A DNA stretch of 64,000 bases from Bacilli bacterium (GCA_050953065.1 JBMNLZ010000002.1:125906-189905); one strand, 5' to 3'; counted from the stretch's first letter, positions 19,496 to 42,744 are shown. Program-made: numbers and translations. The notes: generated by a model from the letters alone, not told the origin.

Positions 19496-19501
19496 TTTTT
19501 T

Positions 19502-20736: not shown

Positions 20737-20746
20737 GAGTTAGTAA

Positions 20747-22410: not shown

Positions 22411-22456
22411 AAGTAAAAACCATTTCTTTAATAATATATATTAAAGAGGTGGTTTT

Positions 22457-23268: not shown

Positions 23269-25668
23269 ATGAGAGTGGAGGTAGATATGAAAAAAACTTT
23301 ATTGATGATATTAGTATTATTAAGTGTAGTACTAGTTGGATGTAAAAAGGTGGAAGCAATTTTTACTATAACTTATAATTTAAATGAAGGAATATTACCT
23401 AGTGGGGCTAAAGAATCTTTTACAGAAAAAGAACTTCCTTTACAGTTAGATATACCAACTAAAGAAGGTTATATTTTTTGGGGATGGTATGAAAAAGTTG
23501 ATTTTAGTGGTGATGCGATTACTGCTTTAACTGAGGCTAAAAACTATATATTATTTGCTTTATGGGAGGAAGAAGAAGTAATTCCTGCAACATATACTAT
23601 AACTTATAATTTAAATGGTGGTAAGAATGTAAAAGCAAATAAGGATAGTTTTAAAGAAAGTGATTTACCACTTGAATTAAGAGGTGCTACTAAACAATAT
23701 TTTACATTTTTAGGATGGTATAAGACTCCTGATTTTAGCGGTGAAGTAGTTACATCTATTACTAAAGAAGGTAATGTTACACTTTATGCTAAGTGGGATA
23801 AAGGTCAAAATATAATTGATTATGATTTAGATGGTGGCGATTGGCCTTATACATATCCTTTTGAAGATAGAAGTGATATGGTAGGTGAGTTTATTACTGA
23901 TATTAATGCAGCGCTTGGTTTATCAACTTCAGCTTCATCTTTCTTTTCAACAGGAACATATGGAAAAGATGTTGCAAGTTTTTTTACAATGGAAGCTTAT
24001 AAAGATAAGTGGGGTTGGTTTAAAACTTATATTATAAATGTTGCAACAAGTCAAGGATATGCTAGTATGTCAGGTCTTAATTCAGGAGATAGTGCAATTT
24101 GGAGAAGTAATATTGATTCGTTTTTAAATAGCACTCAAAGAAGCGAATATCCAGTTAGTGCTAATTTTACAACTGAGGCTGCAGCAAATGGTTTTTGGGA
24201 TTTAATTAAAATAGGTCCTATTATTACTACAACTTATGTTGAAATTACTGAAGATATTACTTTAATTAATCCAGTTAGAAATGGCTATAATTTTTCTTGT
24301 TGGGTTGATGAAGATAACAATCCTATTACAGTAATTAAAAAAGGGACAGAAGGTTACTATAAAGTAAGGGCTGTTTGGGATGCAAGAATTTTCCCAACTG
24401 AAATTGTTATTAATAATCCTCTAACTGCATCTTTAGATAAAGGCGATACTTGGGATTTAGATATTAGCCTATTACCATTTAATGTTGAAGAAACAGACCT
24501 TAATATGGTAAGTAGTAATGAACATATTGTTAGTATTGAGGATGGTATTTTAGAAGCATATGCATATGGGGCAGTTACTATTACAATAGCATCTGTTTAT
24601 AATAGTAGTGCTACTACTACATTTAATGTTACAGTTGCTCCAGCCTTAACTGAAGGAGTTCCTGTAATCTTTAATTCATATGGAACATATCTAAATGCTG
24701 TTATTAAAAAAGGTGAAGCATTTGATTTGTCTGAAGGAATTTATGCATATGAATTAAATGCAGGCGATGTAACTAAAGATATTACAATTAAACTTAATGG
24801 CTATTCTAATCAAGTAGTTGGAAACTATAAAGTCGAATATGAAGTTTTAGTTGGTGGTGCTAAAGCAACACTTGAAAGAAATATAATCGTTAATGAATTT
24901 ATTTGGGTCGGACATCGTGGCTGTAATGATGAATGTGTAAGTAATACAATTGAGGCTTTTGAAAAAGGCATTGCAAGAGGCTATAAAGCTTTAGAATGTG
25001 ATATTAAAGTAACTAAAGATAATCAGTTTGTAATCTTCCATAATGGTTATTTAAATGATGCAACAGGAGAAAAAGTATTAACTGAACCATATCAAGCAAC
25101 AACACCAGAATCTAAAACACTAGCAGAACTACAAGCTATGACAGTTAGTCAAACAAGAACTACTCCATCAGGAACATATACTGGTCAAATTGCAAGTTTA
25201 GGAGAGTTTTTAGATTTATGTAAAACAAATGATATCATTGCTGTTATTGAAATCAAATGGACAACAGGGTTAAATACTAGTGATACTAGTAATGTTGAAA
25301 CATTAGTTGAGTTTGTTAAGAGTAAGGGATGGTATGAAAAAACTGTCTTTATGACTTCAATGAGAGCTGTATTAGATGCTATTAGAATAAAATACAGTGA
25401 TGCTACACTCCAATGGTTATGTGGTGCTCAGGCAACCTATGATTCATATAAAGATTGGGCTATTACAAATAGAATTTCTCTTGATATTGCATATGGACTT
25501 TTAACTGAAGATATAGTTACTGAATTCCATAGTAATGGTTTATTAGTAAATTCATATACTCTAAACACTACAAATATTGCTACTACTCAAATTAATTATG
25601 GAGTTGATATGATCACGACTGATTATTTATATCATAATGGTGGTGTAGTTGCTAAAAAATTCTCTTAA
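23269..25668 (+). CDS. Surface lipoprotein with Listeria-Bacteroides-type repeats and a C-terminal glycerophosphodiester phosphodiesterase (GDPD) domain
   Basis: Lipobox LVGC; repeats (TYNLNGG...GWY...LYAKW); GDPD-like HRGCNDECVSNTIEAFE...ECDIKVTKDNQFVIFHN. Confidence 0.65.
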   Translation: MRVEVDMKKTLLMILVLLSVVLVGCKKVEAIFTITYNLNEGILPSGAKESFTEKELPLQLDIPTKEGYIFWGWYEKVDFSGDAITALTEAKNYILFALWEEEEVIPATYTITYNLNGGKNVKANKDSFKESDLPLELRGATKQYFTFLGWYKTPDFSGEVVTSITKEGNVTLYAKWDKGQNIIDYDLDGGDWPYTYPFEDRSDMVGEFITDINAALGLSTSASSFFSTGTYGKDVASFFTMEAYKDKWGWFKTYIINVATSQGYASMSGLNSGDSAIWRSNIDSFLNSTQRSEYPVSANFTTEAAANGFWDLIKIGPIITTTYVEITEDITLINPVRNGYNFSCWVDEDNNPITVIKKGTEGYYKVRAVWDARIFPTEIVINNPLTASLDKGDTWDLDISLLPFNVEETDLNMVSSNEHIVSIEDGILEAYAYGAVTITIASVYNSSATTTFNVTVAPALTEGVPVIFNSYGTYLNAVIKKGEAFDLSEGIYAYELNAGDVTKDITIKLNGYSNQVVGNYKVEYEVLVGGAKATLERNIIVNEFIWVGHRGCNDECVSNTIEAFEKGIARGYKALECDIKVTKDNQFVIFHNGYLNDATGEKVLTEPYQATTPESKTLAELQAMTVSQTRTTPSGTYTGQIASLGEFLDLCKTNDIIAVIEIKWTTGLNTSDTSNVETLVEFVKSKGWYEKTVFMTSMRAVLDAIRIKYSDATLQWLCGAQATYDSYKDWAITNRISLDIAYGLLTEDIVTEFHSNGLLVNSYTLNTTNIATTQINYGVDMITTDYLYHNGGVVAKKFS

Positions 25669-27920: not shown

Positions 27921-30128
27921 ATGAAGAAATGCTTATTTTTATTTAGTATATGTTTATTTGTTTTAAGTGGATGTTTGTATAAAGTAGAACAACCTCCTAA
28001 AGTAGATATAGTTATTTCTTTTACTAATGAAGGAGATTCATTAGATAAAGTAACTGGAGATTTAATTTTACCAAGTGAATATAAAGAAGAAAGTATTACT
28101 TGGCAATCAAGTAATGAAAGTATTTTATCTAATGATGGAATTCTTTTAGTAGATAAAACAGAAGAAGATATTCCTATAATGATGACTGCAACTCTTTCAA
28201 GTGGTGAGAAGATAAAATTTTTATTAACAATTAAAGCTAACGTTAATGATGAAGAAGATACTGATGTTTTAGCAGTTGAAGTGAAAGCATTTTTAAATGT
28301 GCTTAATAGTATTACTGAAGTTGATTTAGGATCAAGAAACCAAATTGAACTGGCTAGAACATTATTTGATAGATTAGATAGTACTAAAAAAAGGCAAGTT
28401 TCAGGGAAGGATTATTTAAGATTAGTTACGATTGAAAGCACATATAATAGTCTTTTAGTAAATCAAGCAGCAGTAGAAGTTTGCAATATGATTTCTAGTA
28501 TTATAGATGGTTCCCTAACAAATGAACAAGCAATCTTAAATGCTAGATCTAGTTATAATAATTTAAACGATGATTTAAAAAAAGAAGTAAACAATCATGA
28601 TAGATTGCTTGCTTTAGAAGTTGAATTACAATCAAATAAAGATATTGCTTTTGTTGAAGAAAAGATACGTGAAATAGGGCCTGTTGATATGAACAGCGAA
28701 ATAAAAATCAACATTGCTTTAGCTTTTTATAATCATTTAAGTGAAACAGAAAAAGCTAAAGTTTCAAACAAAGATGTTTTGTCTAACGCAGTTAGTGCAT
28801 ATCAAAATTTGATTACGGAATTTAGAGTTGTTTTTTTAGATAGTGATGAGACTGTTTTAAAAATTGAGTCAGTTAAAACAAATCAAAGTGCAACACCTCC
28901 TGTTGTTGATAAAATAGGCTATACATTTATTGCATGGTCAAGTAATGAATATCAAAACGTTACAAAAGATGTAACAGTTAAAGCAAGTTATTCTCTTACA
29001 ACTTATGATATTGTTTATAATTTAAATGGTGGAGTATTAAGTAATTCAGTTAATAGTTATACTGTTTTAGATGAAGTAAATTTAAAAACTCCGACTAAAA
29101 CTAATCATATATTTTTAGGTTGGTATACAGAAAGTAGTTTTACTCATAAAGTAACATCTATTTCAGTTAACTCAATTGGAAATAAAACATTTTATGCTAA
29201 ATGGGTTTCTTTAACAGAAGAGTTTAATATTACATATAATTTAAATGGTGGTTATTGGGGATTTTTAAGTAAGGCTGAACTGACTAGTAGTTTTTTTAAT
29301 GATTTAAAAACATATTTAGGAGCAAGTGAAACATATAATACTTTTGTTCATGGAGTAGGTAAAACAAGTGGCTTTGCAGGGCTTTGGTATACAGATGCTA
29401 GATATAAGGATAAAATATATAAAGTAAATTCTAAACTACCAAATAGTGATCCATACTTTATTAATCATCCAACATATAATGCTAAGTGGCTGGCTTTCTT
29501 TAACTTAATTGATGAAATGGTAAAACAAGTAAATTCTACTCAAAGTTTTTGGGGAGAAGTATATGTTGGAAGACTTAGACTTAAAAACTATTTTGCTGGA
29601 GAGACATTTATTGCATCTCAGTTAGCAAGAATGCCTAATTATAATGGAACAATAGTTAATAAGATTAAGTATAACGATAATTTAACACTAAGAAGACCGT
29701 GTGGAGTTAATAAGGAATTTTTGGGTTGGAGTTTAACTAATACCTCTTCAACAAATTACCTTACTAATCTAACTAATATTTCAAGTAATGTTACACTATA
29801 TGCAATATGGAGAAATATGCAAGCAGTTGAAGTGTCTTTAGGTATTTTTGAAATAACAGCATATTGTCCTTGTAGTATTTGTTGTGGAGAATATTCTGAT
29901 GGTATTACATATTCTGGAACTGTTACTACAGCTGGAAGAACTATTGCAGTTGATCCTAGTGTGATTGCCCTTGGAACTAGTGTTATTATTAATAATCATA
30001 CTTATGTTGCAGAAGATATTGGTAGCGCAATAAAGGGAAAACGAATTGATATTTATTTTAATACTCATCAAGAAGCATTAAATTTTGGCAGAAGACAATT
30101 AGAAGTTAAAGTAATTCAATATCAATAA
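27921..30128 (+). CDS. Surface lipoprotein with Listeria-Bacteroides-type repeats and a C-terminal 3D (MltA/YuiC-like) domain
   Basis: Lipobox LSGC; YNLNGG...GWY...YAKW repeats; C-terminal 3D-like AYCPCSICCGEYSDGITYSGT...DIGSAIKGKRIDIYF. Confidence 0.6.
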   Translation: MKKCLFLFSICLFVLSGCLYKVEQPPKVDIVISFTNEGDSLDKVTGDLILPSEYKEESITWQSSNESILSNDGILLVDKTEEDIPIMMTATLSSGEKIKFLLTIKANVNDEEDTDVLAVEVKAFLNVLNSITEVDLGSRNQIELARTLFDRLDSTKKRQVSGKDYLRLVTIESTYNSLLVNQAAVEVCNMISSIIDGSLTNEQAILNARSSYNNLNDDLKKEVNNHDRLLALEVELQSNKDIAFVEEKIREIGPVDMNSEIKINIALAFYNHLSETEKAKVSNKDVLSNAVSAYQNLITEFRVVFLDSDETVLKIESVKTNQSATPPVVDKIGYTFIAWSSNEYQNVTKDVTVKASYSLTTYDIVYNLNGGVLSNSVNSYTVLDEVNLKTPTKTNHIFLGWYTESSFTHKVTSISVNSIGNKTFYAKWVSLTEEFNITYNLNGGYWGFLSKAELTSSFFNDLKTYLGASETYNTFVHGVGKTSGFAGLWYTDARYKDKIYKVNSKLPNSDPYFINHPTYNAKWLAFFNLIDEMVKQVNSTQSFWGEVYVGRLRLKNYFAGETFIASQLARMPNYNGTIVNKIKYNDNLTLRRPCGVNKEFLGWSLTNTSSTNYLTNLTNISSNVTLYAIWRNMQAVEVSLGIFEITAYCPCSICCGEYSDGITYSGTVTTAGRTIAVDPSVIALGTSVIINNHTYVAEDIGSAIKGKRIDIYFNTHQEALNFGRRQLEVKVIQYQ

Positions 30129-30155
30129 TTTGATTTATAAAGTATTAAAAAAGAT

Positions 30156-30190
30156 AAGGATTTTGTTTTAAAAACAAAGTCCTTTTTTTG
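30156..30190 (+). terminator. Rho-independent terminator after the lipoprotein gene
   Basis: Stem AAGGATTTTGTTTT / AAAACAAAGTCCTT followed by a T-run. Confidence 0.6.
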
Positions 30191-30227
30191 TTTAATCGTT
30201 TTCAAGTTAAATATTTTCATAAAGTTC

Positions 30228-30256
30228 TTAACAAAGAAAGGCTTATGTGTTATAAT
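30228..30256 (+). promoter_or_regulatory. Putative promoter of the hydrogenase operon
   Basis: TTAACA, 17-nt spacer, TATAAT (with TGT just upstream). Confidence 0.45.
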
Positions 30257-30348
30257 ACTTAATGGAAAAATCAAAATTTTAGGTAGCATAAAAGACTATT
30301 TATGATTTTTTTAAAAAAGTAAACCATAAGAAAAGGAGTGAAAAGATT

Positions 30349-30846
30349 ATGGCAGTTAAAGTCGAATTGACTGAAGCTAAAATTAATGAGTTAAAGTCAA
30401 AAATTGCTGCACACAAGAAAAAACCAGGGCCATTAATGCCTACATTGCATGATGCTCAAAAGATTTTTGGTTGTGTACCTTTAGCAGTGCAAAAAATTAT
30501 TTCAGAAGAATTAGGAGAAAGTGTTGCTAAGATTAATGGTGTTGTTACTTTCTATTCAAATTTTTCAATTGAACCAAAAGGGAAATATGTAATTTCTGTT
30601 TGTTTAGGAACAGCATGCTACGTAAGAAGCGCGCAACAAATCCTTGATGTATTTACAAAAGAATTAAATATTGCTCCAGGTGAAACAACTGAAGATGGTA
30701 AATTTACAATAGAAGCTACAAGATGTATAGGTGCTTGTGGACTAGCTCCTGTTTTTACTATTAATGGTAAAGTTTATGGTTCAGCTACACCTGATATTGC
30801 TAGAAAAGCTTTAAAAGAATGTAAAGAATGTGAAGAAAAGGAGTAG
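30349..30846 (+). CDS. hndA: [FeFe]-hydrogenase NuoE-like subunit (thioredoxin-like [2Fe-2S])
   Basis: NuoE/HndA-like Cys pattern (CLGTAC...CIGACGLAP); first gene of a four-gene hydrogenase operon. Confidence 0.8.
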   Translation: MAVKVELTEAKINELKSKIAAHKKKPGPLMPTLHDAQKIFGCVPLAVQKIISEELGESVAKINGVVTFYSNFSIEPKGKYVISVCLGTACYVRSAQQILDVFTKELNIAPGETTEDGKFTIEATRCIGACGLAPVFTINGKVYGSATPDIARKALKECKECEEKE

Positions 30847-30854
30847 TGTGAAAA

Positions 30855-31214
30855 ATGAAACTTGCAGATTTAAAAAAGATTAAAGAAGAAGGTAGTAAAA
30901 AACTTTTCTTAAAAGAAGATAAAAATTATAGAATCGTTGTTGGACTAGCAACTTGCGGGATTTCTGCTGGCGCTAATGTTGTTTATGATGAATTAAAAAA
31001 GATAATTAAAAAACAAAATCTTAACGTTGATTTAGTTTCAGTTGGTTGTATGGGTCAATGTGCATTAGAACCAATTGTAGAAGTATATGATAAAAAAGGT
31101 ACAAGAACTACATATGGTAAAGTTAAAGCACAAGATGCTATAAAAATAATTGAAAGTCATATTTTGGCAAACACAGTAGTTGAAGAATTATTGTTGTCAA
31201 AATTATTGAAATAG
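30855..31214 (+). CDS. hndB: Small thioredoxin-like [2Fe-2S] ferredoxin subunit (HndB-like)
   Basis: 119 aa; Cys motifs ATCGISAG and GCMGQCA; lies between the NuoE-like and NuoF-like genes. Confidence 0.65.
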   Translation: MKLADLKKIKEEGSKKLFLKEDKNYRIVVGLATCGISAGANVVYDELKKIIKKQNLNVDLVSVGCMGQCALEPIVEVYDKKGTRTTYGKVKAQDAIKIIESHILANTVVEELLLSKLLK

Positions 31215-31226
31215 GAGGATAGTATA

Positions 31227-32693
31227 ATGGTACAAGGAAAACAAGTAAGAATTGCTTTAAGAAATTGTGGTATTATTAATCCTATTTCTTTAGAAGAATA
31301 TGTGGCTTGTGATGGATTCTTTGCTTTAGAAAAAGTGTTGCATCATATGACGCCAGAAGAAGTATGTAAAGTAATTAAGGATTCTGGTTTAAGAGGACGT
31401 GGAGGCGGAGGGTTTCCAACTGGACTTAAATGGGAATTTGAAGCTAAAAATTCTGCCAAACAAAAATATATAATTTGTAATGCTGATGAGGGCGACCCAG
31501 GTGCATTTATGGATAGAGCTGTTTTAGAAGGCGATCCATTCTCAGTAATTGAAGCGTTAATTATTGGTGGGTATGCAACGGGCTCTACTCAAGGTTATGT
31601 TTATATTAGAGCAGAATATCCTTTAGCAGTTGAACGTCTTAATACGGCTATTAAAATTTGTTATAAGAATAACTTGTTAGGTAAAAATATTTTAGAATCA
31701 AACTTTTCATTTAATTTAGAAGCTCGTCTTGGAGCAGGAGCGTTTGTATGTGGTGAGGAGACTGCTTTAATGGCTTCTATTGAAGGTGAAAGAGGAATGG
31801 CTAGAACTAAACCACCATTTCCTGCTGAAAAGGGCTTATGGGGAATGCCAACAAGCATTAATAATGTTGAAACATTTGCAAACATTGCACCAATTATTTT
31901 AAAAGGTGCTGAATGGTTTAAGCAATATGGGACTGAAAAATCTAAAGGTACTAAAGTATTTGCTTTAGGTGGAAAAATTAATAATACTGGTCTTTTAGAA
32001 ATTCCAATGGGAACTACTTTAAGAGAAGTTATATATGACATTGGTGGTGGGATACCTGGTGGGAAAGCTTTTAAAGCTGTTCAAACAGGTGGACCTAGTG
32101 GAGGATGTTTAACTGCAAAACATCTTGACACTGGAATTGATTATGATAACTTAGTTGCACTTGGCTCAATGATGGGGTCTGGTGGAATGATTGTTATGGA
32201 TGAAGATAATTGTATGGTTGATGTTGCAAGATTTTTCTTAGATTTTACAGTTGATGAGTCATGTGGTAAATGTACTCCTTGTAGAGAAGGTACTAAGAGA
32301 ATGCTTGAAATTTTAGAAAAGATTATTGCTGGAAAAGGTGAAATGAGTGATTTAGACGAATTAGAAAGCCTAGCTCATTCAATTAAAGACTCAGCACTTT
32401 GTGGTTTAGGTCAAACTGCTCCAAACCCAGTATTATCAACTCTAAATAATTTTAGAGATGAATATATTGCTCATATCGTTGAGAAGAGATGTCCTGCTGG
32501 AGTATGTAAGGATTTAATTAAATATCATATATTAGCGGATAAATGTATTGGTTGTACAAGATGTGCTAAAGTTTGTCCAACTGGTGCTATTAAAGGCGAA
32601 TTAAAACAAGCACATGTAATTGATGTTAATAAATGCATTAAATGTGGAGCATGTAAACAAGCGTGTCCTGTTCATGCGATTGTTACTAAGTAG
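31227..32693 (+). CDS. hndC: NuoF-like NAD(P)H-binding flavoprotein subunit with FMN and Fe-S sites
   Basis: [16 protein letters not shown] motif; C-terminal 2x[4Fe-4S] ([24 protein letters not shown]). Confidence 0.85.
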
Positions 32694-32710
32694 AAGGAGG
32701 TATATAAAAC

Positions 32711-34501
32711 ATGGAAAAATTAGTCAAATTAACTATTGATGGAAGAAGTGTCGAAGTACCTAGTAATTCTACTGTAATGGAAGCAGCGGATAAACTTGGG
32801 ATTAGTATCCCACGTATCTGTTTCTTAAAAGGAATTAATGAAACATCTGCTTGTAGATTATGTGTAGTAGAAGTTGAAGGTATAAAAGCATTAAAAAGCT
32901 CTTGTACATTACAAGTAGCTGAAGGAATGAAAGTTAAAACTAATACTGAAAGAATTAGAAATGCAGTTAAGTTTAACTTAAAATTATTAGCAGCTAGTCA
33001 TAAATTTGAATGTTGGGTTTGCCCTAGAGAACATAATTGTGAACTATTAAGATTGTTAAGAATTTATGGTATTCCTAATGAAATGGGAGAAGATAATACT
33101 TTCTCTAAAAAGCATATTATTTCAAATATTAATGAAGCAATTGCAATTGATAGTTCTAAGTGCTTACTTTGTGGTAGATGTATTGCTACTTGTGATAAGT
33201 TAGCTGGAACGGGAATTCTAGATTTTAACTATCGTGGCTTTGAAGCTTTTGTTGGACCAGCCTTAAACCATCCTATGGGAGATACTGGATGTATTCTTTG
33301 TGGGAAATGTATTCAAGCATGTCCAGTTGGAGCTATTAAAGAAAAAGATGATGTTGATAGAGTAATGGAAGTATTAAAAGATCCAGAAGTTTATACAATT
33401 GCTCAAATCGCTCCAGCCGTAAGAGCAGGAGTTGGTGAGGAGTTTGGTTATCCAATGGGCACTAATGTTGAAGGTAAAATCTATCATGCCTTACATAAAT
33501 TAGGTTTTGATGATATTACAGATACTAACTTTGCGGCTGACTTAACTATTCTAGAAGAAGGAACAGAATTTATTGGTAGAGTTAAAGACTATTTAGCTGG
33601 TAAAAAAGCTGTTCTACCTATGTTTACTTCATGTTCGCCTGGTTGGATTAATTATCTTGAAACTTATTATCCTGAATTTATTCCAAACCTTTCAACATGT
33701 AAATCGCCTCAACAAATGCAAGGAGCGATAATTAAGAATTACTATGCTAAGAAGATTGGAGTTCCAAAAGAAAAGATTAGAGTAGTTTCAATCATGCCAT
33801 GTATTGCTAAGAAGAAAGAAGCGCTTCGTCCTGAAATGGAAGTAGATGGCGTTAGAGATGTTGATTATGTATTAACATCTAGAGAATTTGCTCGCTTAGT
33901 AAAACGTAATCTAATTGACTTTAATGCTTTAACTGATTTTGTTCCACAAAGTCCACTTGCTAAGTATACTGGTGCTGCAGTAATCTTTGGGGCAACTGGT
34001 GGAGTAATGGAAGCGGCTTTAAGAACTGTTAAAGAAGTTTTAGAAGAAAAAGATATGGGTAAAGTTGATATCACTGCAGTTCGTGGAATGAAGGATATCA
34101 AAGAAGCTACAGTTAAGATTGAATTAAAAGGAGCTAAAGAACCTCTAGAAGTACTTGTTGCTGTAGTTCATGGTGCTGCTAATGTTCCTGAAATGATGGA
34201 AAGAATCAAGAAGGGTAAAAAGCAATATGCCTTTATTGAATTTATGGCATGTACTGGTGGATGTATCAATGGTGGTGGTCAACCAGTAGTTTCAGCTGAA
34301 GTTCAAGATAAAGTAGATGTTAGAGCAGTTCGTGCTAAAGCATTATACAATATGGATAAACGCGCTCAAATTAGAAAGTCTCATGAAAACGAAGCAGTTA
34401 GCACATTGTATAAAGAGTTCTTAGGTGAACCTGGAAGTAATGTATCTCATAAATTACTTCATACACATTATAAAAAACAAGATAAGTTTACTAAAATTTA
34501 A
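32711..34501 (+). CDS. hndD: [FeFe]-hydrogenase catalytic subunit
   Basis: N-terminal [2Fe-2S] and Fe-S domains; H-cluster motifs TSCSPGW (variant), MPCIAKKKE, EFMACTGGCINGGGQP. Confidence 0.85.
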   Translation: MEKLVKLTIDGRSVEVPSNSTVMEAADKLGISIPRICFLKGINETSACRLCVVEVEGIKALKSSCTLQVAEGMKVKTNTERIRNAVKFNLKLLAASHKFECWVCPREHNCELLRLLRIYGIPNEMGEDNTFSKKHIISNINEAIAIDSSKCLLCGRCIATCDKLAGTGILDFNYRGFEAFVGPALNHPMGDTGCILCGKCIQACPVGAIKEKDDVDRVMEVLKDPEVYTIAQIAPAVRAGVGEEFGYPMGTNVEGKIYHALHKLGFDDITDTNFAADLTILEEGTEFIGRVKDYLAGKKAVLPMFTSCSPGWINYLETYYPEFIPNLSTCKSPQQMQGAIIKNYYAKKIGVPKEKIRVVSIMPCIAKKKEALRPEMEVDGVRDVDYVLTSREFARLVKRNLIDFNALTDFVPQSPLAKYTGAAVIFGATGGVMEAALRTVKEVLEEKDMGKVDITAVRGMKDIKEATVKIELKGAKEPLEVLVAVVHGAANVPEMMERIKKGKKQYAFIEFMACTGGCINGGGQPVVSAEVQDKVDVRAVRAKALYNMDKRAQIRKSHENEAVSTLYKEFLGEPGSNVSHKLLHTHYKKQDKFTKI

Positions 34502-34510
34502 ATGAGTTTT

Positions 34511-34543
34511 AAGATTCTAAGGAAAACCTTAGAATCTTTTTTA
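34511..34543 (+). terminator. Rho-independent terminator after the hydrogenase operon
   Basis: Stem AAGATTCTAAGG / CCTTAGAATCTT followed by a T-run. Confidence 0.7.
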
Positions 34544-34619
34544 TAAAATGATATCTATTTGCATAAGAAAGTACAAAATATTTGTACTTATAGGAGCAAA
34601 TAATATCTATAAATAATTA

Positions 34620-34650
34620 AAAGATTCTAAATAAAATTTTAGAATCTTTT
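34620..34650. terminator. Second hairpin (AAGATTCTAAA / TTTAGAATCTT), likely terminator for the convergent minus-strand regulator
   Basis: Inverted repeat read directly; shares the AAGATTCTAA arm with the hairpin at 34511. Confidence 0.45.
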
Positions 34651-34653
34651 AAT

Positions 34654-35283
34654 TTAATCTAATAATTTGATATAGTCTTTTGAATAATCAATTAAGCCTA
34701 AATCTTTTAAAAGGATTAACTCTCTTGATAAAGATGGCCTTGGAATATTTAAAAAAAGTGCTAGTTGTTCTTTTGATTTAATTTTGATTGTTTTTGATTT
34801 GGTCCTTTTACTAGTTTCAGATAAAAAGAATAAGATTTTATCTTTAATACTTTTTTGAGAAAGTATTTTAATTTTTTGTTGGAAAGCAATACTTTTATTG
34901 GACATAATAGATAAATAATTATTTAAGAATGTTTTATCGTTTTGCAAGATGTTTAATAGTTTATCTTTAGTAATCAAAGCAAGTTCAGTTGATTTAAAAG
35001 CACTAACATCTCCTAAAAAGAAAGGATTAGAATGGAAGAGTAAAAACTCTCCAAATAAATCATTTTCGTTTATTGTAATAATATTATATTCTTCTTCAAA
35101 GAATGTATAAGTATTAATTAAAACAGAACCTTTTAAAACTAAAGATAAATATTTACATTCATCTCCTTCATTAAAGATCATATCGTTTTTATTAAAAGTT
35201 TTGATTATAAAGAGATTACTATAGTCTTTTATAACATTTTCAAATAGTGGATGATTTTTCATTGTTTTTCCTTTCTGTAACAA
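34654..35283 (-). CDS. Crp/Fnr-family transcriptional regulator
   Basis: N-terminal cNMP-binding-like region; C-terminal HTH (RPSLSRELILLKDLGLI). Confidence 0.7.
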   Translation of the reverse strand: MLQKGKTMKNHPLFENVIKDYSNLFIIKTFNKNDMIFNEGDECKYLSLVLKGSVLINTYTFFEEEYNIITINENDLFGEFLLFHSNPFFLGDVSAFKSTELALITKDKLLNILQNDKTFLNNYLSIMSNKSIAFQQKIKILSQKSIKDKILFFLSETSKRTKSKTIKIKSKEQLALFLNIPRPSLSRELILLKDLGLIDYSKDYIKLLD

Positions 35284-35332
35284 ATGTTACGGCTATTTAA
35301 TTCTAACATATGTATAATGGTTTTGTAAAGAG

Positions 35333-36289
35333 GTGAAATGTATTATGAAAAAAATTATTGTAAGTTTAATGGTTATTGTCTTAGGGTTTTTCTTAGGCGC
35401 ATGTAGTAAAGAGGAAAAAGTTTATGGAGAGATTGATATCTTAGCACCATTTGGGACTCCTTTAATTGCAGTAGGAGGTTTGCTTGGAAAAGATAATATT
35501 AATATAGAAGCAGTCAATGATCCAAGTTTGTTAACAGCTGCGATGGTAACTAAAGAAAAAGATATTATCATTGCTCCAATTACTGCTGGGACTGCTAGTT
35601 ATATTAAGGGTGGGTCTGTTTATAAAATGGCTGGAATTGTTACTTTGGGGAATACTTATATTGTATCAAGAGAAAGTTCTACTTTAACAAGTGTTAATGA
35701 TTTAGAAGGGAAAACTATTACAGCTTATGGTAGAAATAATACTCCTGATATTGCTTTAAAACTTTTACTTGATAATGCTAATGTTACTGCAACAATTGAT
35801 TATCAAAACAGTGTTGGTGATGTTGTAGCGCTATTTAATGGAACTACTCCACCTGAATATATTTTAGTTGCAGAACCTTTCTTAACGCAGTTAAAGAATA
35901 AAAATACTTTAAATGTTTTAAATGTGGAAAGAGTTTTACAAGAAAAAGATGTTTTAGATAATATCTATCAAGCAGCAATCTTTGTTAATCCAGAAAGCGT
36001 TAAAGAAGATCTTAATCATGCTATTAGTTTAATTGAAGAAAACTTAAATTCTTTAAATAATAATCCAGAAAGTTATGCTGAAAGTGTTGTTGATAAACAT
36101 GCTTATTTTACTAATCTAGGAGTTGCAGTTTTAAAGAAAAGCCTACCTTCTGCAAATTTAGATTTTGTTGGAGCATTTGAAAATAAAACTGCAATTGAAA
36201 ATTACTATAATATTATAAATACCTATAACGATAAGCTATTTAATAATCAATTGCCTAATAGTGATTTTTATTATGAATATAATAAATAA
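35333..36289 (+). CDS. ABC transporter substrate-binding lipoprotein (NMT1/SsuA-like, tentative)
   Basis: Lipobox LGAC; about 300 aa; followed by an overlapping permease. Confidence 0.5.
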   Translation: MKCIMKKIIVSLMVIVLGFFLGACSKEEKVYGEIDILAPFGTPLIAVGGLLGKDNINIEAVNDPSLLTAAMVTKEKDIIIAPITAGTASYIKGGSVYKMAGIVTLGNTYIVSRESSTLTSVNDLEGKTITAYGRNNTPDIALKLLLDNANVTATIDYQNSVGDVVALFNGTTPPEYILVAEPFLTQLKNKNTLNVLNVERVLQEKDVLDNIYQAAIFVNPESVKEDLNHAISLIEENLNSLNNNPESYAESVVDKHAYFTNLGVAVLKKSLPSANLDFVGAFENKTAIENYYNIINTYNDKLFNNQLPNSDFYYEYNK

Positions 36290-39639: not shown

Positions 39640-41478
39640 TTATTCTATAACATAAATTATCTTACTCCAAACAACACTAAATGTTGTAAGACTATATTCG
39701 ATATAAACATCACTTACATTTGGATCATTACAAATAATGAAAGTTCCATTATCAGTAATTTTGTATCCTCTAACAACTAGTAAGTGTCCTGGTACATCAT
39801 AATTAGCTTCTACCATATTACCTCTTACAGTGGTTGAGATTGGACCAACTGTTTCTAAGTGGTGGAAAAGTTCTTCAAATGAATAAAGTCTTTTAACATA
39901 ACTTATCTCTCCAAAGGAAGACATTGTTACACAGTTATATACCCAGTTACCATAAATTTGATGTCCGTAGTCTCTTGAAAGCCCTGCAATGTATCTGTGT
40001 TCATATGTGTCCATATGAGCAAAACTATAACCTTTATATTTTAGAAGCATTGTAGCGCTTGTTGGGCTACAAATACTATTACCAATTGTTGGAACAATTT
40101 TTTGATTTAGTTTTGGAACCTCATAATCTTTAAAGCCGCTGATAATACTTTCGTCTACTTCAAAGGTATAATCTGGAATTTTTAAAGCAGCAGTAACAAA
40201 ACTTGCAACAGGGAAAGGATCAGATAAAAAGTTTCTTTTTAAAATCAGTTTATATTGGAAAGCATTAGCTGTTTTATCGTTTTGAACTTTTATTTCATCA
40301 ACTGCCATTTTAGCGATTGGTTTGTCTTGGTCAGTATAAGCATTTTGAAGATGTAATCCCCATGCTCCGTATGTTAAGTATTCACTCCAAACATCATCAA
40401 CTCTAACTCTAATTTGAAGTTCACAAGTTCCTTTGTTTTCATTCTCATCAGATGTAAGTGCTCCCCAAGAACCAATTAATTCTGAAAAGTTTAGAGTTTG
40501 GATTACTTTAGAAGTATAAGTCCCAGTTAGTGCATTGTCATCTAAAATTAATTTTTCATTGAATAATTTAACATTGTCAAATGTTCCATTGAAGTTTTCA
40601 GCAAGTCCTTTATATAAATGTCCGTTGAATTGTTCGATACCATCGGGTAGTTTTGAAATGTTTAAATTAAAAGTATGTGTCATTGTTAAATCTCCTTGAG
40701 TTTTTAGAGTTACTGTTAGATTAACTATCTTTTCTTCATCTTGCATAAAGACATAGCCTTTATTTGATAAAATCTCTTCATTGCTTGACTGCCAAGTAGC
40801 AGTTACATTATATAAAAAATTAGTTGGAAGTAAAACTGAAGAATTTAGTGTCTCAGGAAAAGAGATACTGTTTAAGGCAATTTCTAATTTTTTATCATCA
40901 TCTGGTGGTAAGACATCGATTGTAAAAGATTTAGTAATAGTAGCATTTGAAAATCTTAAAGTAGCCATTAAAGTAACTGTAGTTGGTTTTAAAACAACGC
41001 CAACAATTCCATCTTTGTTTAAAACGCCACTTGCAGTAGAAGTCCAAGTGATTCTAGCAAAGCCAATTGTTGTTGGCAGGTTTAAATTTTCGCTAGTTTC
41101 TGTTGGTAGAGCAAGTTCAAGTGCTAGTGTTTCTAAGTCGTTGTGATAATCAGGAGTATATAAGAAAACATCAAATGTTTTAGTAACGGTCTTACTCTTA
41201 TAAGATAGTGTTAAAGTGAGTGCAACTAATTGATCTTCTTCAAATGGATAAATTACTCCAGTATTATCAATTACAGTGGGGATGTTTGATTCCCAAGTAG
41301 CAGTAACGCCTTCTTCAAAAACTGTAGGTAGGGTAATGTTTTCTTTAATATCAACAATTTCTTCAGGGATTGAAACTGAGTTTATTATTTTGGTTAAATC
41401 TATTTTTTTCTTACACCCTGTTAAAAATAATAAACTAAAACCAAACAAAATTAAAAATATTTTTTTCAAAATAATCAC
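39640..41478 (-). CDS. Surface lipoprotein with Ig-like repeats and a C-terminal papain-like cysteine peptidase (C39-like) domain
   Basis: Lipobox LTGC; repeated modules (TATWQSSNEEILSNKGYV); C-terminal NSICSPTSATMLL with later His. Confidence 0.6.
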   Translation of the reverse strand: MIILKKIFLILFGFSLLFLTGCKKKIDLTKIINSVSIPEEIVDIKENITLPTVFEEGVTATWESNIPTVIDNTGVIYPFEEDQLVALTLTLSYKSKTVTKTFDVFLYTPDYHNDLETLALELALPTETSENLNLPTTIGFARITWTSTASGVLNKDGIVGVVLKPTTVTLMATLRFSNATITKSFTIDVLPPDDDKKLEIALNSISFPETLNSSVLLPTNFLYNVTATWQSSNEEILSNKGYVFMQDEEKIVNLTVTLKTQGDLTMTHTFNLNISKLPDGIEQFNGHLYKGLAENFNGTFDNVKLFNEKLILDDNALTGTYTSKVIQTLNFSELIGSWGALTSDENENKGTCELQIRVRVDDVWSEYLTYGAWGLHLQNAYTDQDKPIAKMAVDEIKVQNDKTANAFQYKLILKRNFLSDPFPVASFVTAALKIPDYTFEVDESIISGFKDYEVPKLNQKIVPTIGNSICSPTSATMLLKYKGYSFAHMDTYEHRYIAGLSRDYGHQIYGNWVYNCVTMSSFGEISYVKRLYSFEELFHHLETVGPISTTVRGNMVEANYDVPGHLLVVRGYKITDNGTFIICNDPNVSDVYIEYSLTTFSVVWSKIIYVIE

Positions 41479-41646
41479 CTCTTTTTTAATGATTATATCA
41501 TTATTTAATTAAATATAAAAGTTAATTATAGAAACTTTTATTTTATAAATTTGCTAGTTTTAAAGAAAAATGATAATTTTATTAAAAGCTTTAAAAAAGA
41601 TAAAAAAAGGGTTTAAAACGTTTTCTTTTTGTGGTATAATGCTTTT

Positions 41647-42744
41647 ATGAGCGCTTTCATTTTAGAAAAAATAGATAAGAATTTTAAAGATAGTAAGTTT
41701 ATTGATAGTAATCTTGATTGGTATGATGTCTTAAAAATGAAAGATTACGTAAAGGGACTATATTGGTTTAAAACTAATAATAGTTTTTCAAGGCTAGATG
41801 ATAATTTAGAAGTAAGAGATAATCTAAAGGTTTTATCTTTAATGCCAAGTGGAGGATATCTTGAGTTTGAAAGTGATACTGATGAGATATCTTTAGATGT
41901 TGAATTAGAGGATAGTTACTTCATGCCACATATGACTGCAATAGGTCAAGCGGGCTTTGATTTATATGCAAAGTTTGGTGAAAAGTTTATTTATTTAGCT
42001 AGTACTAAAACAAAAGAGATAAAATATCGATATAATCTTTATAAAAGTGATAAAAAAGAGTTAAGAACCTATAGAATTTATCTACCAATGTACATAAAAA
42101 TTTTAAGTTTAAGTTTAGGTTTAGGTAAGGATGGTATAATAAGAGGTACATCGGAGAATAAAGGCGCATATATTGTGTGTTATGGAACTTCTATTACTCA
42201 AGGTGGATGTGCAACAAGACCTGGTATGAATTATACAAGCATCTTAGAAAGGCATATTGATTATAGAGTTTTAAATTTTGGCTTTTCTGGGAATGCTCAT
42301 TTAGATAGTGTAATAGCTAAAGAAATTGTAAAAATTAATCCTGAAATAGTTATAATAGAGGCTATTGCAAATTGTTTAGGTAAAGATTTCTTTGAAGAAA
42401 ATTTGAAAGAATTTATAAAAATTGTTTCAAGAAAAGCCAGTGTTATTGTTACTAGTTATTTTCCAAGTTCTAGTGCTTTAATTGATATTAATAAAGATAA
42501 GTTAATTAAAGAAAGCACTAAAATTGTTAAAAAAGTTATCAAAGAAATTAATAATGAGAATGTGTATTTTTTAGATGGTTTTGAAATATTAAAAGAACTA
42601 GACTATGAAGAAACAGTAGATGGCATACATCTAACTGATTTAGGCTTTTATTTCTTAGCTATGAAGTTAAGAGACAAAATAAAAAAAATAAAACGTGAGG
42701 TGGAAAGAAAAAAATGTTTAAGCAAAAAAGATTTTTCGTATTAG
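41647..42744 (+). CDS. SGNH/GDSL-type hydrolase (esterase/acylhydrolase) with an N-terminal extra domain
   Basis: Block I GTSITQGG (Ser nucleophile) and later DGIH; track start 41629 is a TTG inside a TATAAT box, so ATG 41647 is preferred. Confidence 0.6.
   Translation: MSAFILEKIDKNFKDSKFIDSNLDWYDVLKMKDYVKGLYWFKTNNSFSRLDDNLEVRDNLKVLSLMPSGGYLEFESDTDEISLDVELEDSYFMPHMTAIGQAGFDLYAKFGEKFIYLASTKTKEIKYRYNLYKSDKKELRTYRIYLPMYIKILSLSLGLGKDGIIRGTSENKGAYIVCYGTSITQGGCATRPGMNYTSILERHIDYRVLNFGFSGNAHLDSVIAKEIVKINPEIVIIEAIANCLGKDFFEENLKEFIKIVSRKASVIVTSYFPSSSALIDINKDKLIKESTKIVKKVIKEINNENVYFLDGFEILKELDYEETVDGIHLTDLGFYFLAMKLRDKIKKIKREVERKKCLSKKDFSY

What the first reader, a model, noticed from the sequence alone, without database searches (positions are those of the whole stretch)
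30349..34501. Hnd-type four-subunit NAD(P)-linked [FeFe]-hydrogenase operon with no maturase genes nearby
Gene order NuoE-like, small [2Fe-2S] ferredoxin-like, NuoF-like, hydrogenase matches the HndABCD arrangement, implying a multimeric, possibly electron-bifurcating hydrogenase. No hydE/hydF/hydG is adjacent in this window, and a Crp/Fnr regulator is encoded convergently downstream. H2 metabolism in a lipoprotein-rich Mollicutes-like genome is physiologically notable.
Basis: partly seen in the sequence, partly recalled or inferred. Interest (0 to 1): 0.45.

Follow-up and report, generated by a model that had tools for sequence, protein, structure and literature searches.

The report
Ordinary electron-bifurcating [FeFe]-hydrogenase operon
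This is a well-formed four-gene operon for a known kind of NADH- and ferredoxin-linked hydrogen-producing enzyme, in an uncultured wall-less-type gut or digester bacterium; relatives carry the same operon, and the missing helper genes nearby are normal.

Summary
Four co-directional, tightly spaced ORFs (30349-34501) encode a NuoE-like [2Fe-2S] subunit, a 119-aa thioredoxin-fold protein, a NuoF-like flavoprotein and an M3-type [FeFe]-hydrogenase. A promoter-like site, a Shine-Dalgarno sequence before each gene and a terminator-like hairpin frame them. The three large subunits best match Acetobacterium woodii HydABC, a proven electron-bifurcating enzyme, and all metal-cluster ligands are conserved.

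Three corrections apply. First, the small protein has only three Cys plus one Glu. It resembles the Zn-binding N-terminal domain of NfnB and the redox-silent HndB, so it is probably not a [2Fe-2S] ferredoxin. It is separated from the flavoprotein gene by a single in-frame TAG. Second, no hydE/F/G lies in the window, but that is the rule: only 1 of 80 related loci has them adjacent. The rest of the genome, an NCBI "Bacilli bacterium" MAG, could not be reached. Third, the Crp/Fnr gene's conserved palindrome faces a divergent ABC transporter, not the hyd promoter.

Orthologous operons occur in more than 30 Acholeplasma/Anaeroplasma-like MAG species, and [FeFe]-hydrogenases are already reported for RFN20, RF39, Izemoplasma and Peloplasma. 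This is a new member of a known kind, of low interest.

The parts
30156..30184 (+). Terminator-like hairpin plus T-run ending the upstream lipoprotein gene; it marks the 5' boundary of the hyd transcription unit.
   Evidence: 13-pair stem followed by TTTTTTGT.
30228..30256 (+). Sigma-70-type promoter-like site, TTAACA-17 nt-TATAAT with a TG extended -10, about 90 nt upstream of the first ATG.
   Evidence: 11 of 12 matches, the best in 30000-35500. The sequence was read. This is a consensus match only; no expression data exist.
30349..30846 (+). HydC/HndA/BfuC-like subunit (165 aa), a NuoE-type thioredoxin-like [2Fe-2S] protein with ligands Cys85, Cys90, Cys126 and Cys130 (cluster C1).
   Evidence: PF01257 at 1.4e-46. 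Best PDB match is 7q4v_C, A. woodii HydC, at 2.8e-43, and the HndA C-terminal domain 2auv matches at 1.8e-24. AAGGAG Shine-Dalgarno sequence.
30855..31214 (+). HndB-like small subunit (119 aa), a free-standing thioredoxin-fold module with Cys34, Cys65, Cys69 and Glu72. It is the paralogue of the N-terminal ('B5') domain of BfuB subunits. It probably binds Zn or is structural, rather than being a [2Fe-2S] ferredoxin.
   Evidence: matches 9bov_B residues 2-90 at 5.5e-14 and 8oh5_B at 3e-14. One search gives the alignment and tree separating the 3-Cys 'S-type' from the 4-Cys type. One search gives residue numbers. PMC11829005 describes the 3C1E Zn site.
31212..31226 (+). Junction between the small gene and the flavoprotein gene: a single in-frame TAG, four codons, then ATG. 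The GGAGG Shine-Dalgarno sequence overlaps the stop codon. Read-through translation is colinear with the fused 610-613-aa HydB of relatives.
   Evidence: frame difference 0, alignment to L005, L008, L011 and L015, and an identical junction in L001 and L003. One search shows the Shine-Dalgarno sequence.
31227..32693 (+). HydB/HndC/BfuB-like flavoprotein (488 aa). It has the FMN/NADH site (GRGGGGFP at residue 57, [10 protein letters not shown] at residue 85). Its metal sites are [4Fe-4S] B1 (Cys346/349/352/392), the 3Cys-1His site (Cys329/His416/Cys422/Cys427) and C-terminal 2x[4Fe-4S] B3/B4 (Cys440-450 and Cys470-480). It lacks the canonical 4-Cys N-terminal [2Fe-2S] domain.
   Evidence: 7q4v_B at 7.9e-230, with query residue 5 aligning to residue 114 of A. 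woodii HydB. One search gives residue positions. Searches show that relatives have a 596-600-aa HydB with the extra domain.
32711..34501 (+). HydA/HndD/BfuA catalytic [FeFe]-hydrogenase (596 aa, M3 architecture). It has [2Fe-2S] (Cys37/48/51/65) and a His-ligated [4Fe-4S] (His97, Cys101/104/110). It also has two [4Fe-4S] clusters (Cys151-161 and Cys194-204). The H-cluster motifs are TSCSPGW (Cys308 proton relay, Ser309 at the CpI Cys300 ligand position), MPCIAKKKE (Cys364) and EFMACTGGC (Cys514, Cys518).
   Evidence: 7q4v_A at 1e-177, 8a6t_A at 4.5e-155, CpI at about 1e-148.. PMC10021017 reports Ser301 as a ligand in active A. woodii HydA. dN/dS against L032 is 0.15.
34511..34548 (+). Intrinsic-terminator-like hairpin (12-pair stem) plus T-run, 10 nt after the hydA stop codon.
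   Evidence: sequence read.
34654..35262 (-). Crp/Fnr-family regulator, convergent with the operon. It is a neighbour and is not shown to regulate hyd.
   Evidence: cNMP_binding plus HTH_Crp_2. The 202-aa version starting at the ATG is the one called in L001 and L002. It lies convergent within 300 nt of hydA in 12 of 28 related loci.
35277..35290 (.). Perfect palindrome GTAACAAATGTTAC between crp and the divergent NMT1-like ABC-transporter genes. It is the likely operator of the Crp/Fnr protein.
   Evidence: GTAAC-N4-GTTAC occurs upstream of crp in 19 of 22 related loci. It is the only perfect copy in the 64 kb, and there is none upstream of hyd.

Best explanation
The locus is one transcription unit encoding a cytoplasmic, flavin-based electron-bifurcating (confurcating) [FeFe]-hydrogenase of the HydABC/Hnd/Bfu family, HydDB group A3. 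In a fermenting anaerobe it most likely runs in the confurcating direction. NADH is oxidised at the FMN of the 488-aa flavoprotein, and reduced ferredoxin donates electrons through that subunit's C-terminal 2x[4Fe-4S] domain. The [2Fe-2S] cluster of the 165-aa NuoE-like subunit gates between the two branches. Electrons then pass down the Fe-S chain of the 596-aa catalytic subunit to the H-cluster, where protons are reduced: NADH + 2 Fd(red) + 3 H+ gives 2 H2 + NAD+ + 2 Fd(ox). The 119-aa protein is the detached counterpart of the N-terminal thioredoxin-fold domain of the flavoprotein. With its 3Cys + 1Glu site it probably holds Zn or has a structural role, helping to form the ferredoxin-docking surface rather than carrying electrons. 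What is shown: gene structure, homology, conservation of every cofactor ligand, purifying selection, native codon composition and conservation of the operon across the lineage. What is inferred: bifurcation itself, NAD versus NADP specificity, direction of catalysis, the metal in the small subunit, expression, and the presence of HydE/F/G elsewhere in the genome.
For: All three large subunits have A. woodii HydABC (7Q4V), a biochemically proven bifurcating enzyme, as best solved relative: E 1e-177, 7.9e-230 and 2.8e-43. NCBIfam NF040763 is passed above its curated cutoff. Every Fe-S, FMN and H-cluster ligand is conserved. The Bfu-defining domains are present: PF01512, SLBB, PF10589 and Fer4 in the B subunit, and PF01257 in the C subunit (definition in PMC9304861). 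The His/Cys site and the B3/B4 clusters that non-bifurcating homologues lack are also present (PMC9304861, PMC11829005). The Ser at the CpI Cys300 position is shared with active A. woodii HydA (PMC10021017) and with 83 of 84 clade members. Operon signals comprise a promoter-like site, four Shine-Dalgarno sequences and a terminator-like hairpin. dN/dS is 0.15 for hydA against the 87%-identical L032, and pN is far below pS for all four genes against L004. GC3 is 0.13-0.16, as in neighbouring genes. The operon, with a similar upstream lipoprotein gene in the loci examined (L004, L009) and a nearby downstream crp gene in most, recurs in more than 30 Acholeplasmataceae/Anaeroplasma/'Mollicutes'/Bacilli MAG species.
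Against: No biochemical or expression data exist. No hydE/F/G was found in the window or in about 17 kb of added flank, and the rest of the MAG could not be searched. The flavoprotein lacks the canonical 4-Cys N-terminal [2Fe-2S] domain found in A. woodii, T. kivui and T. maritima HydB, which one model (PMC10021017) gives a role in NAD(P)+ binding affinity. The C. saccharolyticus NfnABC structure argues that this cluster is dispensable (PMC11829005). The NCBIfam name says 'NADH-dependent' without stating bifurcation.
Confidence: 0.8

Rival explanations
1. The enzyme is a non-bifurcating, ferredoxin-independent NADH-dependent [FeFe]-hydrogenase of the Syntrophomonas wolfei Hyd1ABC or Syntrophus aciditrophicus HydAB type. 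Such an enzyme makes H2 from NADH only at very low H2 partial pressure.
For: NCBIfam names the best model 'NADH-dependent [FeFe] hydrogenase'. The flavoprotein lacks the canonical N-terminal [2Fe-2S] domain.
Against: Non-bifurcating homologues lack the B2-B5 sites, and their beta subunits form a separate clade (PMC9304861, PMC7311640). Here the 3Cys-1His site (Cys329/His416/Cys422/Cys427) and the C-terminal 2x[4Fe-4S] are intact and align without gaps to bifurcating A. woodii HydB. A B5-type module is still encoded, as a separate protein.
Confidence: 0.1
2. The enzyme has the same architecture but works physiologically in the H2-oxidising, bifurcating direction. It would supply NADH and reduced ferredoxin from external H2, as Hnd can in Solidesulfovibrio and HydABC does in acetogens.
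For: The family is reversible (PMC10084766, PMC10021017). The closest solved relative comes from an acetogen.
Against: The window and its flanks show sugar ABC transporters, hydrolases and lipoproteins typical of a reduced fermenter, and no Wood-Ljungdahl genes or respiratory acceptor genes. However, only about 80 kb of the genome was seen. Related lineages are described as H2 producers (PMC7301438).
Confidence: 0.07
3. The operon is a non-functional relic. It is intact in sequence, but the enzyme is never matured because the genome has lost hydE/F/G. Alternatively, the in-frame TAG between the small gene and the flavoprotein gene is a disabling nonsense mutation.
For: No maturase gene was found in 64 kb plus flanks. 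A single in-frame stop splits what is one gene in L005, L008, L011 and L015.
Against: All 20 Cys, the His and the motif residues of HydA are conserved, and dN/dS is about 0.15. Only 1 of 80 related loci has adjacent maturases, so non-adjacency is uninformative. The stop is followed by a well-placed GGAGG-8 nt-ATG, and the downstream ORF begins just before the conserved core, so both products can be made. The same composition, small subunit plus about 52-kDa flavoprotein, is the active form in Hnd (PMC10084766). Related Izemoplasma express hydEFG (PMC8397711).
Confidence: 0.03

Closest known systems
Acetobacterium woodii HydABC (PDB 7Q4V/7Q4W/8A5E), an electron-bifurcating [FeFe]-hydrogenase
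   Same: It is the best solved relative of all three large subunits. HydA has the same M3 architecture and length (583 against 596 aa). It shares the unusual TSCSPGW motif, with Ser replacing one Cys ligand of the [4Fe-4S]H subcluster (Ser301 in A. woodii, Ser309 here), and the extra Cys in S(S/T)CKSP. HydB has the same FMN site, B1 cluster, His/Cys site and C-terminal 2x[4Fe-4S].
   Different: A. woodii HydB is 599 aa and has a 4-Cys N-terminal [2Fe-2S] thioredoxin-like domain. Here that domain is missing, and a paralogous 3Cys-1Glu module is encoded as a separate 119-aa protein.
Solidesulfovibrio (Desulfovibrio) fructosivorans HndABCD
   Same: It has four subunits in the order NuoE-like, small, NuoF-like, hydrogenase. 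The small subunit lacks an obvious redox centre (PMC10084766). The NuoE-like subunit matches the HndA C-terminal domain 2AUV at 1.8e-24. From my recollection of Malki et al. 1995, the subunit masses are about 19, 14, 52 and 63 kDa, against 165, 119, 488 and 596 aa here.
   Different: It comes from a different phylum. Orthology of the HndB/C/D sequences could not be tested here because no sequences were available. The nearest relatives of the window's genes are Bacilli and Clostridia HydABC, and the four-ORF form here appears to be a lineage-specific split of a fused gene. The resemblance is therefore probably convergent in gene structure.
Caldicellulosiruptor saccharolyticus NfnABC (PDB 9BOV), NfnB N-terminal thioredoxin-fold domain
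   Same: The 119-aa protein aligns to NfnB residues 2-90 at E 5.5e-14. The motifs G-x-x-(S/T)-C-G and G-C-x-G-x-C-x-x-E-P are conserved, and these provide the 3Cys-1Glu Zn ('B5') site (PMC11829005).
   Different: In NfnB the domain is fused to the flavoprotein, and the third substrate is NADPH rather than H2. The metal content of the window's protein is untested.
HydABC operons of Acholeplasmataceae/Anaeroplasma/RFN20-like MAGs (L004-L033, L044, L076)
   Same: HydA identity is 61-68% (87% for partial L032). They share the TSCSP motif, and often the upstream aBig_2 lipoprotein, the downstream convergent crp and the NMT1-like transporter.
   Different: Most have a 596-600-aa HydB with the 4-Cys domain plus a separate small protein. 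Sixteen also carry a five-gene cassette (histidine-kinase-like ATPases, PHP, DRTGG-like) between hydC and the small gene. Four have the small module fused to HydB. Among those sampled, only the window combines a free small module with a truncated HydB.

Membership tests
Bfu / HydABC electron-bifurcating [FeFe]-hydrogenase (HydDB group A3) | The catalytic subunit has an H-cluster domain (L1, L2 and L3 motifs) plus N-terminal [2Fe-2S] and [4Fe-4S] domains. | tested here: met
   L1 is TSCSPGW, the Ser variant known from active A. woodii HydA (PMC10021017).
Bfu / HydABC electron-bifurcating [FeFe]-hydrogenase (HydDB group A3) | BfuB has the FMN/NADH domain, SLBB, the NuoF [4Fe-4S] and a ferredoxin-type 4Fe-4S domain (IPR011538, IPR019554, IPR019575, IPR017896; PMC9304861). 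| tested here: met
   PF01512 at 2.7e-42, SLBB at 27.4 bits (cutoff 27), PF10589 at 9e-36 and Fer4 x2. One search gives the alignment to 7q4v_B.
Bfu / HydABC electron-bifurcating [FeFe]-hydrogenase (HydDB group A3) | A conserved His/Cys site next to B1 (a 3Cys-1His Zn site) and the C-terminal B3/B4 clusters. These are absent from non-bifurcating homologues. | tested here: met
   Cys329, His416, Cys422 and Cys427 have the same spacing as C438/H525/C531/C536 of A. mobile HydB quoted in PMC9304861. Cys440-450 and Cys470-480 provide B3/B4.
Bfu / HydABC electron-bifurcating [FeFe]-hydrogenase (HydDB group A3) | An N-terminal thioredoxin-like [2Fe-2S] ('B5') domain sits on BfuB. | tested here: not met
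   The 488-aa protein starts at the equivalent of A. woodii HydB residue 110. A 3Cys-1Glu paralogue is supplied as a separate ORF. PMC11829005 shows that a Zn-containing B5 is compatible with bifurcation, so this affects strict architecture rather than the likely mechanism.
Bfu / HydABC electron-bifurcating [FeFe]-hydrogenase (HydDB group A3) | BfuC is a NuoE-like [2Fe-2S] subunit (IPR002023). | tested here: met
   (Cys85/90/126/130).
Bfu / HydABC electron-bifurcating [FeFe]-hydrogenase (HydDB group A3) | Tightly coupled NAD(P)(H)- and ferredoxin-dependent H2 turnover. | not testable with these tools
   This requires enzyme assays.
Hnd (HndABCD) of Solidesulfovibrio fructosivorans | Four separate subunits in the order NuoE-like, small non-redox, NuoF-like, hydrogenase. 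| tested here: met
   PMC10084766.
Hnd (HndABCD) of Solidesulfovibrio fructosivorans | Sequence orthology to HndB, HndC and HndD. | not tested
   No Hnd sequences were available apart from the HndA C-terminal domain (2AUV, E 1.8e-24). The nearest relatives found are Bacilli and Clostridia HydABC.
Non-bifurcating NADH-dependent [FeFe]-hydrogenase (S. wolfei Hyd1ABC type) | The beta subunit lacks the B2-B5 sites. | tested here: not met
   The B2, B3 and B4 ligands are all present. The criterion comes from PMC9304861 and PMC7311640.
Complete [FeFe]-hydrogenase system (structural genes plus maturases) | hydE, hydF and hydG are present in the same genome. | not testable with these tools
   They are absent from the window and from about 17 kb of extra flank. 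The MAG's 639,747-bp contig and its other contigs could not be retrieved. A HydG search listed only its best 120 hits, all named ones from Clostridia-type taxa or unclassified Bacillota, so the lineage's own HydG was not retrievable.
Crp/Fnr-controlled hydrogenase operon | The regulator's binding motif lies in the hyd promoter region. | tested here: not met
   The conserved palindrome GTAACA-N2-TGTTAC lies upstream of crp itself in 19 of 22 relatives. The window has one perfect copy at 35277-35290 and none in 30129-30348. No shared palindrome was found upstream of hyd in 29 loci.

The most novel reading that the evidence does not exclude
The genome, and perhaps the whole Acholeplasma/Anaeroplasma-like clade, lacks hydE/F/G yet keeps a strongly constrained hydrogenase operon. 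That would imply an alternative route of H-cluster assembly or cofactor scavenging. A milder version is that this enzyme is a natural 'minimal' bifurcating core, with no Fe-S cluster at the B5 position and the B5 module acting in trans.
Probability: 0.03. Interest if true: 0.75.

Novelty: new member of a known kind. Interest (0 to 1): 0.15.

Why it matters
The finding matters little beyond annotation. It adds one more uncultured, reduced-genome Bacilli lineage to the list of probable H2 producers that use a confurcating HydABC-type enzyme, which bears on H2 budgets in guts and digesters. Two points could interest enzymologists. First, this clade has lost the canonical N-terminal [2Fe-2S] domain of the flavoprotein, apparently at least three times independently, while always keeping the 3Cys-1Glu thioredoxin-fold module, either fused or, as here, free. 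That supports the recent structural claim that the B5 cluster is dispensable for bifurcation. Second, the serine ligand of the [4Fe-4S]H subcluster, described once for A. woodii, is invariant in all 83 clade members in which the motif could be read (of 84 examined), and always comes with an extra Cys 21 residues downstream.

Tried and rejected
1. Maturase search. I looked for CxxxCxxC ORFs. I ran tblastn with HydG, HydE and HydF taken from the Alkaliphilus hydrothermalis locus L039 and confirmed by NCBIfam and Pfam. The targets were the window and all 83 loci fetched by then, and only L039 matched. I tried to reach the rest of the genome. An exact-protein look-up showed that the organism is an NCBI 'Bacilli bacterium' MAG with a 639,747-bp contig. 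However, the look-up of encoding contigs returned only short metagenome contigs, which extended the view by about 7 kb upstream and 10 kb downstream without maturases. A database search with HydG returned 7,962 hits but lists only the best 120. The named ones are all Clostridia-type taxa or unclassified Bacillota, so the lineage's HydG could not be picked out. I considered a degenerate-pattern scan of metagenome contigs for HydG motifs and dropped it. The expected thousands of hits against a small listing cap gave little chance of seeing the two relevant samples.

2. Crp/Fnr link. I searched 29 hyd upstream regions and 22 crp upstream regions for shared palindromes, then searched the window for the resulting motif. 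The motif belongs to the crp/transporter intergenic region, not to hyd.

3. Horizontal transfer. This was rejected because GC3 is native and flanking synteny is conserved.

4. Sequencing error as the cause of the split small/flavoprotein genes. This was rejected because the junction is identical in three independent assemblies. The frameshifted small gene in L001 is probably an artefact of 3x coverage, with five 1-nt deletions within 57 nt.

5. TSCSP as a sign of an inactive or sensory hydrogenase. This was rejected because the same Ser is a documented ligand in active A. woodii HydA.

Full report
**Observation.** All are on the + strand, with gaps of 8, 12 and 17 nt.

Pfam and NCBIfam assign them as follows:
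- ORF 1 is a NuoE-type thioredoxin-like [2Fe-2S] protein (PF01257, 1.4e-46).
- ORF 2 has a weak match to the same fold (26.5 bits, cutoff 24.8).
- ORF 3 is a NuoF-type flavoprotein (Complex1_51K, SLBB, NADH_4Fe-4S) with two C-terminal 4Fe-4S motifs.
- ORF 4 is an [FeFe]-hydrogenase with N-terminal 2Fe-2S/4Fe-4S domains, Fe_hyd_lg_C (6e-90) and Fe_hyd_SSU. It passes the curated cutoff of NF040763, 'NADH-dependent [FeFe] hydrogenase, group A6' (783 against 765 bits).

A Crp/Fnr-family gene lies convergently downstream at 34654-35283 on the minus strand. Its probable start is the ATG at 35262, the start called on metagenome contigs.

The unit has recognisable expression signals:
- An upstream terminator-like hairpin at 30156-30184.
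- The best promoter-like site of the region, TTAACA-17-TGtTATAAT, at 30228-30256.
- An AAGGAG, AGGAGG or GGAGG Shine-Dalgarno sequence 7-10 nt before each ATG.
- A 12-pair hairpin with a T-run at 34511-34538.

These are consensus matches, not evidence of expression.

**What the proteins are.** The best solved relatives of the three large subunits are chains A, B and C of Acetobacterium woodii HydABC. The E-values are 1e-177, 7.9e-230 and 2.8e-43. Thermoanaerobacter kivui HydABC and the Bfu-type Nfn and NiFe enzymes follow. Every cofactor ligand can be placed:
- The NuoE-like subunit has Cys85/90/126/130.
- The flavoprotein has the FMN/NADH motifs and the [4Fe-4S] next to FMN (Cys346/349/352/392).
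- The flavoprotein also has a 3Cys-1His site (Cys329/His416/Cys422/Cys427). Its spacing matches the C438/H525/C531/C536 site quoted in PMC9304861.
- Two C-terminal [4Fe-4S] motifs complete the flavoprotein (Cys440-450 and Cys470-480).
- The catalytic subunit has the [2Fe-2S], the His-ligated [4Fe-4S], two further [4Fe-4S] clusters and the H-cluster motifs.

According to PMC9304861 and PMC11829005, the His/Cys site and the C-terminal clusters are what non-bifurcating homologues lack (S. wolfei hydrogenase, complex I, R. capsulatus FDH). Deleting the C-terminal clusters abolished bifurcation in T. kivui. I therefore read this enzyme as a flavin-based bifurcating/confurcating hydrogenase. Homology and motif conservation are shown; the activity is inferred.

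**The H-cluster L1 motif.** The motif is TSCSPGW, not TSCCPxW. The Ser (Ser309) sits at the position of CpI Cys300, a ligand of the [4Fe-4S]H subcluster. This does not indicate an inactive or sensory enzyme. Katsyv et al. (PMC10021017) report the same substitution in A. woodii HydA (Ser301) and found normal FTIR signatures and activity. All 83 sequences in which the motif could be read, out of the 84 examined (window, L001-L003 and 80 GTDB loci), have TSCSP. All of these also have a Cys in the downstream S/T-S/T-C-K/R-S-P segment, where CpI and T. kivui have Ala. Whether that extra Cys (Cys330) takes part in cluster binding is unknown.

**The small protein.** It has three Cys and one Glu (Cys34, Cys65, Cys69, Glu72), not the four Cys of thioredoxin-like [2Fe-2S] ferredoxins. 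Its best solved relatives are the N-terminal domains of Bfu-type flavoprotein subunits: 8oh5_B at 3e-14, 9bov_B at 5.5e-14 and 9n5u_B at 6.7e-14. For 9BOV (C. saccharolyticus NfnABC) the authors show that this domain holds a Zn ion bound by three Cys and one Glu, in place of the [2Fe-2S] 'B5' cluster. They propose that the domain helps form the transient ferredoxin-binding tripod (PMC11829005). [quoted passage not shown]

An alignment and tree of 60 sequences separate two paralogous kinds of domain in this clade. The 4-Cys kind (VCGGTGC...GCFGLCE) forms the N-terminus of the 596-600-aa HydB of most relatives. The 3-Cys kind (VGMATCG...GCxGxCALEP) occurs either as a separate 120-140-aa protein or fused to HydB. 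The window's protein is of the 3-Cys kind.

**The flavoprotein is shorter than in relatives.** It starts at the equivalent of A. woodii HydB residue about 110 and has no 4-Cys domain. In a tree of the HydB core it pairs with L005, whose 613-aa HydB carries the 3-Cys module fused at the N-terminus. L008/L011 and L015 have the same fused form at two other places in the tree. Loss of the 4-Cys domain with retention of the 3-Cys module therefore appears to have happened at least three times.

In the window the small ORF and the flavoprotein ORF are in the same frame. They are separated by one TAG and four codons, and the GGAGG Shine-Dalgarno sequence overlaps the stop. The read-through translation aligns colinearly with the fused proteins, and the stop falls where L005 has Gln. 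The junction is identical in two independent metagenome assemblies (L001, L003), so it is real. The four-ORF 'Hnd-like' layout thus looks like a split of a fused hydB, or L005 is the fused form of it. The in-frame arrangement alone is weak evidence, since one in three random junctions would be in frame. Functionally the composition equals that of Hnd: NuoE-like, small non-redox module, about 53-kDa flavoprotein and hydrogenase.

**Organism and relatives.** The window uses TGA as a stop (4 of 59 ORFs), has about 30% GC and contains several lipobox proteins. It carries an rRNA operon followed by 11 tRNAs. Exact look-up of ribosomal proteins identifies an NCBI 'MAG: Bacilli bacterium' (accessions MGI67102xx) with a 639,747-bp contig. 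The same organism occurs in several JGI, ENA and Logan metagenomes.

The GTDB scan with HydA found no identical genome. It did find 34 species-level relatives at 61-68% identity (87% for partial L032). These are labelled Acholeplasmataceae, Anaeroplasma, Mollicutes, Tenericutes or Bacilli. More distant Clostridia follow at 47-52%.

In the close clade the flanks are also partly conserved: an aBig_2 lipoprotein upstream, crp downstream and an NMT1-like ABC transporter. The operon's GC3 (0.13-0.16) equals that of neighbouring genes. This points to vertical inheritance rather than recent transfer. dN/dS for hydA against L032 is 0.15, and all four genes show pN far below pS against L004.

**Maturases.** None is in the window or in the 7 kb and 10 kb of flank recovered from metagenome contigs. 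The comparison set shows this is uninformative. Among 80 related loci (1.2 Mb of flank, 50 with at least 5 kb on both sides), only Alkaliphilus hydrothermalis (L039) has hydG-hydE-hydF next to the operon.

I could not search the rest of the MAG. A HydG database search lists only its best 120 of 7,962 hits, and the named ones are all Clostridia-type taxa or unclassified Bacillota. Presence of hydEFG is therefore inferred from the strict conservation of the H-cluster site, from purifying selection, and from reports that related wall-less Bacilli possess and express them (Izemoplasma, PMC8397711). It is not shown.

**The Crp/Fnr neighbour.** The gene is convergent within 300 nt of hydA in 12 of 28 close relatives, so the synteny is real. 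However, the only conserved operator-like element is a palindrome GTAACA-N2-TGTTAC located just upstream of crp. It faces the divergently transcribed NMT1-like binding-protein and permease genes, and is present in 19 of 22 relatives. The window has one perfect copy (35277-35290) and none in the hyd upstream region. No palindrome is shared among 29 hyd upstream regions. The regulator more likely controls itself and the transporter.

**Comparison with what is known, and verdict.** The locus works like, and by domain criteria belongs to, the Bfu/HydABC (group A3) family. The one architectural criterion it fails, an N-terminal [2Fe-2S] domain on the flavoprotein, is also absent in Hnd and functionally replaced by Zn in C. 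saccharolyticus NfnB. [FeFe]-hydrogenases in Mollicutes-related lineages are already published:
- RFN20 and RF39 are described as probable H2 producers (PMC7301438).
- Izemoplasma has hydrogenases coupled to ferredoxin and NADP, and expresses hydEFG (PMC6256511, PMC8397711).
- Peloplasma has group A1 and A3 enzymes (PMC11122141).

The finding is therefore correct but ordinary: a new member of a known kind. The residual novelty lies in small evolutionary details, namely recurrent loss of the B5 [2Fe-2S] domain, a free 3Cys-1Glu module and the clade-wide Ser ligand.

Noticed in passing
window 31212-31226: The small gene and the flavoprotein gene are in the same frame, separated by a single TAG and four codons, with GGAGG overlapping the stop. 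Read-through translation is colinear with the fused HydB of L005, L008, L011 and L015. This looks like a gene split or fusion point in the interdomain linker.
   Followed up: yes
window 35277-35290; crp upstream regions of L004-L031: A perfect palindrome GTAACAAATGTTAC lies between crp and the divergent NMT1-like ABC-transporter genes. GTAAC-N4-GTTAC is conserved upstream of crp in 19 of 22 related loci. It is the likely operator of this Crp/Fnr-family regulator, whose effector and regulon are unknown.
   Followed up: partly
window 33632-33637 (Cys308-Ser309) and 33698-33700 (Cys330) in hydA; HydA of L001-L083: Ser replaces the CpI Cys300 ligand (TSCSPGW) in 83 of 84 clade members. It always co-occurs with an extra Cys in S/T-S/T-C-K/R-S-P, where CpI and T. 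kivui have Ala. The Ser is documented for A. woodii; I did not find the co-varying Cys discussed.
   Followed up: partly
L004, L006, L007, L009, L010, L013, L014, L017-L019, L024, L025, L028-L030, L033 (e.g. L009 5443-7817): Sixteen relatives carry a five-gene cassette between hydC and the small gene: an unknown 124-aa protein, a histidine-kinase-like ATPase, a DRTGG/HPr-kinase-N-like protein, a PHP-domain protein and a second HATPase. The window lacks it entirely.
   Followed up: partly
L005, L008, L011, L015 and window versus the other close loci: The canonical 4-Cys N-terminal [2Fe-2S] domain of HydB has apparently been lost at least three times in this Bacilli clade. Each time the 3Cys-1Glu module was retained, either fused or free.
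   Followed up: yes
L001 3567-3921 (window equivalent 30959-31015): One metagenome contig of the same organism (3x coverage) has five single-base deletions within 57 nt of the small gene and is otherwise 99.8% identical. This is probably an assembly artefact rather than a decaying gene.
   Followed up: partly
window 19696-23173: A DpnII-type restriction-modification cluster lies directly after the rRNA operon and tRNA array. It comprises a D12-class adenine methylase with an N-terminal HTH, an N6_N4 methylase, a DpnII endonuclease (1e-106) and a second N6_N4 methylase.
   Followed up: partly
window 13728-19574: A complete 16S-23S-5S rRNA operon is followed by 11 tRNA genes in one block.
   Followed up: no
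window 2279-7973, 23269-25668, 27921-30128, 39640-45419: A run of large lipobox proteins carries aBig_2, Listeria-Bacteroides repeat, Big_2, GDPD, 3D, SNase and C39-like peptidase domains. Relatives have an amidase-bearing homologue upstream of their hyd operon (L009 2614-4878).
   Followed up: no
window 8128-9252: An aldo/keto reductase is fused to a C-terminal 2x[4Fe-4S] ferredoxin-like domain (374 aa). It is another possible ferredoxin-linked redox enzyme in this small genome.
   Followed up: no
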